Positions 36,501-39,500 are shown, counted from the stretch's first letter. The stretch is DNA of 64,000 nt from Amoebidium appalachense (GCA_963693365.1 CAVNZM010000011.1:8359937-8423936); one strand, 5' to 3'. The notes: generated from the letters alone by a model not told the origin. Numbers and translations are program-made.

Positions 36501-39500
36501 CATACATATCCTCCCCCCCCCCCCCCCCCCCCCCCCCCCCCCCCCCCCCCCCCCCCCTCCCCCCTTCCCCCCCCCCCCACACACACACCCCATCCACACC
36601 CCCCCACACACACAATCCAATCACCAACCCAAATCACAACAATCCATTCACCAACCCAAATCACAACAATCCAATCACCAACCCAAATCACAACAATCCA
36701 TTCACCGCCCCTCCACACTCACCCGTCCCAACCTTCCTCCCCCAGGTTTGCACACACATATTCACCGTTTTGCTCACCTTGCTTGCATAAGCAACCCCGC
36801 TCGTCTTTGATCAAGACGGGTTGACCCGCCCAAGTTCAGTTGATGCTGCTGTCTGAGTTGGAGCGTCGTATATACGCGAGCTAAGGGATCGAAACTCAGA
36901 CGCAATTGATGACTTGGGTCCTCCCTGAGGATGGGCTCTGCTTATGACGCATACTGTGCACATGGCTGATGTTGCATACTTGAATATTTGCCTTTGCATG
37001 TGTCCTGCACCATGCTTCTCGTCGTGCATGCGTACTTCGTACCGTGTTCCGCATTCTCCCTCTCCCCCCCCTCCCCCCCCCCCACACACACCCCCCTGGC
37101 CGCCCCCTTATATCCAATCACCCACACCTAACCAACCTTTCACCCCTTCCTACCCCCCCCCGTTTTTTTAACACCCACCTAAAACCTTTTTAACACCCAC
37201 CTTTTTTTTTAACACCCACCTAAAACCTTTTTAACAGCCACCTTTTTTTTTAACACCCACCTAAAACCCCCTTCCCCTGTCTTCATCCCCATTCGAACCA
37301 CCTCCATCCCCTCATTCCCCCCTCCCCCTCCCCCCTCCCCCCCCCCCCCCCAACACACACACACACACACACACAGATGCGCGTGTTCACGCTTCTCGAC
37401 GAGCCCGAGTCCTCCCTGTTTGCGATGGGCTATGCCCTTGTGGTTGCGCTATTGATAGTCGTCTATTTGGTGGTGTTGTGGGCTGGATCGGTGCAGGTGT
37501 TGCATGTGAGCAGCGATTATCGGTGGTATATAGAGGTAAGTTTTTTTTTTTTTTTTTACGCGCATATTGTTATTACGTTATTGATGTTAGCATTGTCATT
37601 TTATTCTTTGTTTTTTGTTATTCCTTCTTTCTTTCTTGTTTTCTTCTTTTGGTTTTCTTGCTATTTATAGTCGTCTATGTGGCGGTGTTGTGGGCGGGGT
37701 CGGAGCAGGTGTTGCATGTGAGCAGCGATTATGGGTGGTACATAGAGGTAAATTAACGTTTGAGGCTTTTTTGGTTTTTTTTGCCCCTGCTTGTTTTCCT
37801 TCTTTTTCCCCCCAAGTATGGGTTGGGAACCACGCGCGAGAGATTAAAGATGTCGAAACCCATGCTTTTGTGGAGCCATAGGAACCCTCCTGATGATGGG
37901 CTCTGTTCAATTTTTTCTGCCTGCACGCTTAAATTGTTTGATTTTGGATTTCCCAATTTTGTAACGTTTTGTTGTTGCTCTTTGTTGTCTCCTCCATATT
38001 TCCAACCCTCTAACGCGTACATCACCCCCCCCCCCCCCCCCCCCCCCCCCACCTTTTTTTTTTTTTTTCCTGGGGGGGGGGGGGGGGGGGGGGGAGGAAT
38101 GGATGGGGCCAAGGAGGGGAGGATGTGGGAGACAACGGAGAGGGAGGAGGGGAAGTGTGAGATGCCTGTGTGTGTTTCTGTGTGTGTGTGTGCGTGCACG
38201 CGTGCGTGTGTGTGCGTGTGTGTGCGTGTGCGTATGCGCGTGCGTGTCCACGCGCGTGTGTGGCTGTGTGCGTGTGCATGTGAGTGTGCATAGTTGGGGG
38301 GGTGGGGAGGGGAGGGGGTTAGTTAGCTATTTGTAAGTATGTATGCACACACCCTACCACAAGCACACAATCATATGCAGATGTGTGTGCGTGCACACAC
38401 ACACACACACACACACACACACACACACACACACACAACCAGACACACACGCACACAACTACACCTGCATACAGCTACAACATCCTAGTTCCCCCTCCCT
38501 TCTTTTTTTTCCATCCTGACCAACTAAACTACAGACGGTGCTAGTGGCGTTTTTCACCCTAGACTACGTGGCCCGTCTGCTTACAACCCCCCGGAAGCGA
38601 AAATTCATTTTCAACCTCCTCAATACGATGGATTTACTCTCCCTCTTGCCCTATTACATAGGTACCCCCCCCCCCCCCCCCCCCCCCCCAAAAAAAAAAA
38701 AAAAAAAAAAAAAAAAAAACGCCGCAAAGCCCACACTTCACCTGTTTTTCTTCTCTTTCTGTTTTTTCGCCAATCCATCATGTCACCCACCCCTTCCATT
38801 ATCTGTGTGTCTACATGGCTGATGTTGCATACTTGAATGTTTGCCTTTGCATGTGTCCTGCACCATGCTTCTCGTCGTGTATGCGTACTTCGTACCGTGT
38901 TCCGCATTCAACCCCCCCCCCCCCCCCCCCCCCCCCCCCACACACACACACACCCCAACCCCACCCTACCCCACCTTTTGCAATCTGCATTGTGTTGTCC
39001 CTCATGAAAGTGTAATTTTTTCGTTTGTAAAAGATTCCGACCCACCCCCCCCCCCCCCTCCCCCCCCCCCCCCCCCCCCCCCCCCCCGTTCTTTCCTCCC
39101 GCCCAAAAAGGATCCCCCCCCCCCCCCCACACACACACACATACACCCTCCCCATTCCCCACAAACACACACACACACACCCTCTCCCATCACACACCCT
39201 CCACCATAACACATCGACTTCCCCCACTTCGTTTCCTCCACCCCACAACAAACTCTTTCCACCCGTCATCACATCTTTCCCCCCTTTTCCACCCCTTTCC
39301 ACCTCCCCCCTCCCCCCCCCCCCCCCCCCCCCCCTCCCCCCCCCTCCTCCCACACAGAGCTAGCCCACTATGACGTTAAACATTTGGACGTGCTCCGATC
39401 TCTGCGTGTTGTTCGTCTTCTTCGTCTCTTCCCCATCCTCAAGTATGCAAGTAGAAGGTCTACGATGATGAGAGTGTTCATTACTGCTTTGAGAAAGGTA

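What the first reader, a model, noticed from the sequence alone, without database searches (positions are those of the whole stretch)
36851..36940. Hammerhead-ribozyme core in a non-circularly-permuted (strand-swapped) order inside an intronic repeat family
Seen: the copy reads GUCUGA-GUU-GGAG ... AGGGAUC-GAAAC-UCAGAC ... CUCC-CUGAGGA-U-GGGCUCU. Established: a hammerhead has three strands, a = stemIII-UH-stemI, b = stemI'-CUGANGA-stemII, c = stemII'-GAAA-stemIII'. Types III, I and II are the circular permutations a-b-c, b-c-a and c-a-b. Penelope-associated hammerheads typically use the words CC-CUGANGA-UG, C-GAAAC and GUU-GG. Here all core nucleotides and pairings are available: stem III GUCUGAGU/ACUCAGAC ending A15.1-U16.1, cleavage triplet GUU, stem I GGAG/CUCC directly before CUGAGGA, and G10.1-C11.1. 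The order, however, is a-c-b. Inference: stems I and II form as pseudoknot or kissing pairings between the terminal loop of a long hairpin and a downstream CUGANGA loop, in cis or between two RNAs. I know of no described hammerhead with this topology. Caveats: stem I is only 3-4 bp, stem II is short and interrupted, and a competing hairpin GGGUCC/GGGCUC can sequester G10.1.
Basis: partly seen in the sequence, partly recalled or inferred. Interest (0 to 1): 0.93.

Follow-up and report, generated by a model that had tools for sequence, protein, structure and literature searches.

The report
Split-core hammerhead in protist jumping repeat
An abundant repeat, likely a jumping element in a single-celled relative of animals, carries every part of a hammerhead self-cutting RNA in scrambled order, with the catalytic strand predicted to be broken in two and brought together by extra helices and a kink, a wiring I did not find in print and whose cutting is untested.

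Summary
The motif is real: 5 scrambled-order cores in the window against 0.004 per shuffled window. The order a-c-b is already published as type SGC (Eckert 2023), so far only from metatranscriptomes.

Its likely partner lies upstream, at 36823-36827, with compensatory changes between subfamilies. The family-majority G at 36888 repairs that helix. The CUGAGGA strand is therefore likely cut off from G10.1 and bridged by two extra helices, and a conserved kink-turn is predicted to fold the long stem-III hairpin back onto the core. Nine paper searches did not find this split core.

The motif sits in a high-copy repeat: 18 loci in the window and thousands of matching contigs per DNA run. Copies have a fixed 3' end, poly-C flanks and 5' truncation. 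The host is likely an ichthyosporean. I read the same layout by eye in published Naiad 3' ends, which were described as lacking hammerheads, and this scan had already noted it in animal genomes.

Cleavage, expression and the autonomous partner are not shown. This copy carries a stem II mismatch.

The parts
36746..37056 (+). Repeat copy, subfamily A1; 5'-truncated, fixed 3' end followed by a C-run
   Evidence: nhmmer and blastn; depth collapses after 37056 with poly-C loose ends, and loose ends before 36761 show the family continues upstream
36787..36797 (+). Helix A, 5' strand: 36787-36793 pairs 36939-36945; CCC 36795-36797 pairs GGG 36933-36935 (predicted)
   Evidence: MFE; pairs listed; no compensatory change seen
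36800..36820 (+). Hairpin B, between helix A and G10.1 (predicted)
   Evidence: invariant in 3 of 3 copies
36823..36827 (+). Proposed stem II 5' strand; G10.1 = 36823
   Evidence: 4 of 5 pairs here; the missing pair is restored by the family-majority G at 36888; 6 of 6 Watson-Crick pairs in the copies at 35633 and 60002 with a C-G to U-A change
36828..36844 (+). Kink-turn, bulged strand: C-stem 36829-36838, 3-nt bulge 36839-36841, G36842 and A36843 (predicted)
   Evidence: G.A and A.G pairs in 3 of 3 copies; third pair U.U or A.G; K-turn consensus recalled
36845..36859 (+). Block S: stem III 5' strand with extension, U16.1 = 36858, predicted cleavage after 36859
36860..36863 (+). Stem I 5' strand (3 bp family-wide)
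   Evidence: A-U here, G-C in the other subfamily
36863..36885 (+). S-G linker with a local hairpin and a 10-nt self-complementary stretch (36867-36876)
   Evidence: sequence, MFE
36886..36906 (+). Block G: stem II 3' strand 36886-36890, GAAA 36891-36894, stem III 3' strand
36907..36919 (+). Kink-turn, unbulged strand (G36908, A36909) and C-stem 3' strand (predicted)
36922..36932 (+). Stem I 3' strand, CUGAGGA 36925-36931 and U36932
36933..36945 (+).
35611..35837 (+). Subfamily A2 copy: intact stems I-III and kink-turn; truncated inside helix A
59799..60060 (-). Subfamily A2 copy with the whole scaffold; one mismatch in the stem III arm and one in outer helix A
37812..38024 (+). Family B copy: S-G-C core, truncated about 10 nt before the triplet, different 3' tail
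63100..63330 (-). Divergent B-like copy with S-G-C core
57285..57659 (-). Two nested, decayed or truncated A2-type copies joined by a C-run
54561..54877 (-). Nested B and A1 3' fragments joined by C-runs

Best explanation
This is a high-copy repeat, likely a retroposon, that holds all hammerhead core nucleotides in the order S-G-C and is predicted to fold into a self-cleaving ribozyme whose catalytic strand is split between A9 and G10.1. Predicted fold: a long hairpin presents the GUU site and GAAA in its apical loop. A kink-turn bends the hairpin so that the strands at its base reach that loop. The upstream strand (36823-36827) forms stem II, the downstream strand forms stem I and supplies CUGAGGA, and helix A plus hairpin B replace the A9-G10.1 backbone link. 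Cleavage would fall between 36859 and 36860. The carrier is inferred to be the 3' end, or a non-autonomous derivative, of a Naiad/Chlamys-type Penelope-like element that inserts into C-runs by target-primed reverse transcription. My preferred role for the ribozyme, about 40% on its own, is to cut tandem or read-through transcripts into unit RNAs that can be re-ligated. Shown: sequence order, pairing potential, compensatory changes, copy structure. Inferred: the fold, cleavage, carrier class and role.
For: (1) 5 SGC cores against 0.004 per shuffled window. (2) On three full-scaffold copies, 96.9% of 131 cells pair and 5 pairs change on both sides, in stem I, stem II, the stem III arm (2) and the C-stem; 1 of 500 shuffles reached that count. 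(3) Between subfamilies A1 and A2, 13 of 13 core and 4 of 4 kink-turn letters are identical against 52 of 87 others. (4) G at 36888 makes up 99.5-99.7% of depth in three DNA runs. It completes upstream stem II but puts G.G in the downstream version. (5) Helix energy in the A2 copy: upstream -6.7, downstream -0.4 kcal/mol. (6) Independent test in family B, whose window copy lacks this region. Loose-end consensus from three runs shows GAC(C/U)C 33 nt before U16.1 (34-35 nt in family A), then a C-stem, a 3-nt bulge and GAA that match the GGA-GGC-AUAGG strand (read by eye). (7) The same helix A, hairpin B, G10.1, S, G, CUGAUGA layout is readable in Naiad consensus 3' ends in the supplement of PMC8557442, near parts 10-12 and less cleanly part 24 (by eye). 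(8) 11 of 18 loci have a C-run of 6 or more within 25 nt of the 3' end, against 6.4% background. Chlamys elements target (C)n and are often 5'-truncated.
Against: No cleavage data. The covariation rests on 3 sequences from 2 lineages; the structure was derived from them and the tool warns that the shuffle figure is not a probability. 11 of the 13 core letters (all but G10.1 and arguably C11.1) were used to pick the copies. Helix A and hairpin B show no compensatory change. The downstream pairing remains possible, is slightly better in this copy (-1.1 against -0.4), and has 4 good distal pairs in B-type copies. The family-B letter at stem II position 4 is T in 1 and C in 2 of 3 run consensuses. 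Stem I is only 3 bp. The MFE of this copy pairs across the kink-turn register. No reverse transcriptase partner was found (81 of 126 ORF pieces scanned). The first two Chlamys consensus 3' ends showed no such motif by eye. No 5' end among 18 loci starts at the predicted cut site.
Confidence: 0.68

Rival explanations
1. An ordinary type-SGC hammerhead with an intact block C: stem II forms with GGGCUCU after CUGAGGA-U.
For: The pairing is possible in 3 of 3 A copies. The extra U then G matches Eckert's CUGAUGAUG pattern. B-type copies offer 4 distal Watson-Crick pairs, with a matched shift in the 63306 copy. In this copy it is 0.7 kcal/mol better than the upstream helix.
Against: It needs G-U then G.G or a bulge next to the core in every family consensus. 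The downstream strand stays fixed in A1, A2 and B while its supposed partner changes. The upstream strand changes in step. It costs the inner part of helix A (-9.9 against -5.8). It leaves the conserved upstream GAC, hairpin B and kink-turn unexplained.
Confidence: 0.14
2. A switch or dimer: both stem II pairings are used as on and off states, or two RNAs join through the self-complementary S-G linker to form the core.
For: Self-complementary stretches lie in the linker of A1 (10 nt), A2 (10 nt) and B (6 nt). Both partners are conserved. Dimer cleavage by Penelope minimal hammerheads is recalled, not read here.
Against: A palindrome follows easily from a local hairpin. The 63306 copy has only a 4-nt palindrome. 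The monomer model accounts for all core pairs.
Confidence: 0.08
3. A relic or protein-binding scaffold: the fold is kept for reverse transcriptase or kink-turn protein binding and does not cleave.
For: Stem I is only 3 bp. Genomic copies extend more than 110 nt upstream of the cut site, so templates were uncut or re-joined. 15 of 16 loci inside genes are sense to the host gene, which an efficient ribozyme might not tolerate.
Against: Every catalytic letter is kept across families whose 3' tails do not align, and none varies at 5% or more in family A1. That pattern is hard to keep without catalysis. Only 2 of 18 loci keep the whole scaffold, and both have mismatches.
Confidence: 0.1

Closest known systems
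Type-SGC hammerheads (HRIMA-1 and variants), Eckert et al. 2023, PMC10085705 (read: abstract, text parts 2-5 of 8, Discussion part 1, supplement parts 1 and 8)
   Same: Block order S-G-C, pseudoknotted stems I and II, full core, a U after A9
   Different: Known only from metatranscriptomes, none in genomes of known organisms. They have an intact block C, stem I of 4-7 bp and an S-G linker of 0-8 nt in the search pattern. Here stem I is 3 bp, the linker is about 18-23 nt, G10.1 is likely upstream, and there is a predicted kink-turn.
Naiad/Chlamys Penelope-like elements, Craig et al. 2021, PMC8557442 (read: passages, sections 9-10, supplement parts 1 and 28, four motif searches of the supplement)
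   Same: (C)n target preference (Chlamys), 5' truncation, non-autonomous derivatives. The same split-core layout is readable in several Naiad 3' ends, including the cephalopod 3' ends near part 24 (cephalopod rows are tagged HHR_half_core).
   Different: The paper reports no canonical hammerheads in them and did not recognise this fold. No ichthyosporean is mentioned. No RT or GIY-YIG gene was found here, and no such motif was seen in the two Chlamys 3' ends I read.
Canonical Penelope type I hammerheads and non-LTR retrozymes (10.64898/2026.07.22.740005, abstract only)
   Same: Hammerhead in a non-coding, Penelope-linked repeat
   Different: Circular-permutation order and tandem monomers; reported as excluded from introns. 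Here the copies are dispersed, 5'-truncated, mostly within genes and in scrambled order.

Membership tests
Hammerhead ribozyme | Core CUGANGA, GAAA, UH triplet, A15.1-U16.1 | tested here: met
   5 copies
Hammerhead ribozyme | Stems I, II and III with covariation | tested here: met
   At least one both-sided change in each with the upstream stem II; only 3 sequences
Hammerhead ribozyme | Rfam hammerhead model at gathering score | tested here: not met
   None over this copy; 14.2 bits against 34 for the A2 copy; expected for a permuted order
Hammerhead ribozyme | Site-specific self-cleavage | not testable with these tools
   Needs a bench assay
Type-SGC hammerhead (Eckert 2023) | Order S-G-C | tested here: met
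Type-SGC hammerhead (Eckert 2023) | Unbroken block C (stem II starts within 1-2 nt of A9) | tested here: inconclusive
   Downstream pairing possible but upstream partner favoured; probably not met
Type-SGC hammerhead (Eckert 2023) | Stem I 4-7 bp and S-G linker 0-8 nt (their search pattern) | tested here: not met
   3 bp in 4 of 5 copies; linker about 18-23 nt
Naiad/Chlamys Penelope-like element | ORF with N-terminal GIY-YIG, CxC motif and RT | tested here: inconclusive
   None in 81 ORF pieces of the window; no whole genome is held
Naiad/Chlamys Penelope-like element | Microsatellite target, (C)n for Chlamys, and 5' truncation | tested here: met
   11 of 18 loci with a 3' C-run against 6.4% background
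Naiad/Chlamys Penelope-like element | Partial tandem (pLTR) insertions | tested here: inconclusive
   Head-to-tail joints across C-runs exist, but two of the three tandem arrangements in the window join different subfamilies or ages (the third is decayed), which fits nested insertion
Kink-turn | C-stem, 3-nt bulge, tandem G.A/A.G, NC stem (consensus recalled) | tested here: met
   3 of 3 A copies; family B from loose-end consensus by eye; fold itself untested

The most novel reading that the evidence does not exclude
A naturally split-core, kink-turn-closed hammerhead is an active ribozyme and an ancient, pre-animal feature of Naiad/Chlamys-type retroelements. It breaks the stated rule that CUGANGA and stem II are contiguous, explains why these elements seemed to lack hammerheads, and is present in thousands of copies in a unicellular relative of animals.
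Probability: 0.55. Interest if true: 0.87.

Novelty: new variant of a known kind. Interest (0 to 1): 0.76.

Why it matters
Eckert et al. built the six possible hammerhead permutations on the premise that no known alignment has more than 1-2 nt between CUGANGA and its stems. A natural ribozyme with two helices at the A9-G10.1 link would lie outside that scheme and is invisible to Rfam and RNAMotif searches. It would move non-circular permutations from unassigned environmental RNA into eukaryotic genomes. It also offers a direct test of an open puzzle: how Naiad/Chlamys elements proliferate without the hammerhead that other Penelope-like elements carry. A 160-nt transcript and a gel would decide it.

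Tried and rejected
- Whole genome: none held, so no genome-wide alignment, copy count or truncation map.
- Relatives in public contigs: a loose pattern gave 117 metagenome loci (scan stopped at 25 of 64 parts) and 9 viral loci. A tighter pattern gave 0 viral and 3 prokaryotic loci. Of these 129 loci only L064 passed a split-core descriptor, with a stem III rich in G-U pairs in a bacterial-looking intergenic region; I rejected it as chance. 26 loci are ordinary type I hammerheads.
- Expression: no RNA holder listed. X9 is only guessed to be RNA and is kept as contigs, so it was not used as evidence.
- Copy number: summed contig depth is not a copy number; only contig counts are quoted.
- Variant tables as a test of core conservation: too few variable sites (15 positions at 5% or more in about 297 nt) to be significant alone.
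- my structure string was off by one in its 3' half, so only the stem III rows were kept (5 pairs, 100% paired, one both-sided change). Some offsets for the A2 copies were wrong and were redone, whose outer helix A was in turn corrected.
- An Eckert-type 'I' helix (GGGY with GCUC): set aside, because that strand is better explained as the kink-turn C-stem and the family-B majority letter at 37876 breaks one of its pairs.
- Upstream stem II in the decayed stretches at 5490 and 53932: alignment uninformative. The covariance model found no further full copy.
- A cleavage footprint (5' ends at the cut site): none among 18 loci or the listed loose ends; 619 and 443 loose-end rows were not shown.
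- Host placement from the M12 peptidase and from an ABC membrane exon: uninformative.
- Weinberg 2015 (hammerhead variants with additional helices, cited in PMC13725137) is not held and was not read; it may bear on the novelty of extra helices.
- Not-in-print searches. Passages of PMC3088659, PMC10162972 and PMC13725137 showed only 1-2 nt core insertions or unspecified variants.

Full report
OBSERVATION. Stem III is 9 bp, the triplet is GUU at 36857-36859, stem I is 4 bp here, and CUGAGGA lies at 36925-36931. A descriptor allowing all six block orders found 5 loci in the window, all in the order S-G-C: U16.1 at 35667, 36858 and 37823 on the plus strand, 59968 and 63305 on the minus strand. Shuffled windows gave 0.004 per window; 2 of 500 had one. 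The copies fall into about three lineages. Rfam gives no hammerhead over this copy and one sub-threshold match over the 35658 copy (E 2.1).

THE ORDER IS KNOWN. Eckert et al. 2023 (PMC10085705) name the six orders; a-c-b is type SGC, and five natural examples cleaved in vitro. All came from assembled metatranscriptomes, none from the genome of a known organism. Their pattern needs stem I of 4-7 bp, an S-G linker of at most 8 nt and CUGAUGA(U)G, so it would miss these copies. They also state that no known alignment has more than 1-2 nt between CUGANGA and its stems, and treat that block as unbreakable.

STEM II LIES UPSTREAM. Earlier scan notes on animal genomes pointed to Naiad elements and a broken core, so I tested that here. 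In the two A2 copies the strand before GAAA pairs 6 of 6 Watson-Crick with a strand 34 nt upstream of U16.1 (-6.7 kcal/mol), against -0.4 for the downstream partner. In the focal copy the equivalent strand is 36823-36827 with one C.A mismatch. Contigs of three DNA runs show G rather than A at 36888 in 99.5-99.7% of depth, which repairs the upstream helix and leaves G.G in the downstream one. The two subfamilies differ by a C-G to U-A change in this helix. The weak Rfam match begins exactly at the proposed G10.1, 35633. Family B gave an independent test because its window copy is truncated before this region. Loose-end consensuses from three runs show GAC(C/U)C 33 nt before U16.1; the fourth letter is T in one and C in two, and C is favoured by the poly-C flanks. 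The majority B strand before GAAA lacks T37851 in 70-87% of depth in the DNA runs, giving GAGUC. Against this: the downstream pairing can still form, is 0.7 kcal/mol better in this one copy, and has four good distal pairs in B-type copies.

THE REST OF THE FOLD. After A9 and one U, GGG pairs with CCC at 36795-36797 and an outer 7-bp helix (helix A). Hairpin B (36800-36820) follows, then UU and G10.1. The stem III arm continues through tandem G.A/A.G pairs and a 3-nt bulge into a C-stem with one bulged U, matching the recalled kink-turn consensus in 3 of 3 A copies and, by eye, in family B. On the three full-scaffold copies 96.9% of 131 cells pair, and five pairs change on both sides; 1 of 500 shuffles matched that count, which is not a probability given 3 related sequences. 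Helix A and hairpin B show no such change. Between A1 and A2, 13 of 13 core and 4 of 4 kink letters are identical against 52 of 87 others; most core letters were used to pick the copies, but G10.1 and the kink letters were not. The geometry is coherent: a kink would bring the base of the hairpin, where G10.1 enters and CUGAGGA leaves, to the apical loop that holds GUU and GAAA. This is inference.

THE CARRIER. nhmmer finds 18 loci in the window. They share fixed 3' ends per family and vary at the 5' end, often breaking at an internal C-run. 11 of 18 have a C-run of 6 or more within 25 nt downstream, against 6.4% background. 4,023-8,507 contigs per DNA run match the A1 copy and 1,428-2,115 match the B copy, in runs labelled as three organisms. 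A1 and B tails do not align by blastn; the ribozyme block is what they share. The family extends upstream of the longest window copy by an unknown length. Craig et al. 2021 (PMC8557442) report (C)n targeting, 5' truncation and non-autonomous derivatives for Chlamys, and a lack of canonical hammerheads in Naiad/Chlamys, with eight 'half core' cases. In their supplement I read the same layout by eye in Naiad 3' ends near parts 10-12 and, less cleanly, 24: a helix directly after CUGAUGA, a hairpin, then a 5-6 bp upstream stem II. I saw none in the first two Chlamys 3' ends or in motif hits from the Chlamys file (line breaks hide some hits). No RT of this kind was found among 81 of 126 window ORF pieces (the rest were ABC and peptidase exons or their opposite frames, and the two Copia blocks were excluded beforehand). 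Carrier class is therefore inferred.

HOST. The window has an ABCB transporter, a voltage-gated-type channel, an I/LWEQ gene and Copia remnants. The ABC protein's four best summed hits include a Sphaeroforma protein and two with CFRG ids (reading CFRG as Creolimax is recalled). In the tree it groups with CFRG4527 (96/67) and Sphaeroforma (84/84), unstarred, and outside the starred animal clade (95/89). The host is likely an ichthyosporean; support is moderate.

MECHANISM. Predicted cleavage is between 36859 and 36860, leaving a cyclic phosphate as in other hammerheads. Genomic copies run more than 110 nt upstream of that site and none of 18 starts there, so the template was uncut or re-joined RNA. 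I favour processing of tandem or read-through transcripts into unit RNAs that can re-ligate (about 40%), a lead from note e1-8158652 that I could not test. Only 2 of 18 loci keep the whole scaffold and both have mismatches, so most copies are probably silent. 15 of 16 loci inside genes are sense to the host gene (P about 0.03 given the C-run strand bias, which is partly circular). That is unexplained.

VERDICT. A real, conserved hammerhead-like RNA. The scrambled order is known; the split core with kink-turn was not found in nine paper searches, though Weinberg 2015 could not be read. The scan had noted the same design in animal genomes; no look-alike sequence was on record for this one. What this window adds is a likely non-animal host, a poly-C target and cross-family support for the upstream stem II. 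New variant of a known kind; interest 0.76.

Noticed in passing
window 37377-37536 and 37666-37749 (+): A channel-gene exon with an S1-like translation is followed by a degenerate tandem duplicate of its 3' part, splice donor included.
   Followed up: no
window 57285-57516 (-): A decayed copy has a fourfold 10-nt micro-duplication right after GAAAC and a mutated triplet.
   Followed up: partly
window 35644-35652 (+) and 54157-54165 (+): The same 9-mer lies on the 5' kink-turn strand in subfamily A2 but just 3' of the core in family B; possibly a trace of rearrangement or chance.
   Followed up: no
window 21610-23256 (+): An intronless M12 reprolysin-like ORF whose named hits are bacterial (Phycisphaerae); possible horizontal transfer.
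   Followed up: partly
window 11900-15760 and 26500-29450 (+): Two Copia-type LTR retrotransposon remnants (RVT_2 in both; integrase in the first).
   Followed up: partly
gene regions 200-9850, 33400-42000, 47200-64000: 15 of 16 family loci in these genes are sense to the host gene, and long C-runs are strand-biased the same way.
   Followed up: partly
L002, L005, L013, L016, L022, L028 and 20 more metagenome loci: Ordinary type I hammerheads with a U after CUGAUGA, resembling Penelope-type repeats.
   Followed up: partly
L064 306-430: A bacterial-looking intergenic stretch passes the loose split-core descriptor with a G-U-rich stem III; treated as chance.
   Followed up: partly
window 36867-36876, 35674-35683, 37833-37838: Self-complementary stretches in the S-G linker of all three lineages; possible dimer contact.
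   Followed up: no
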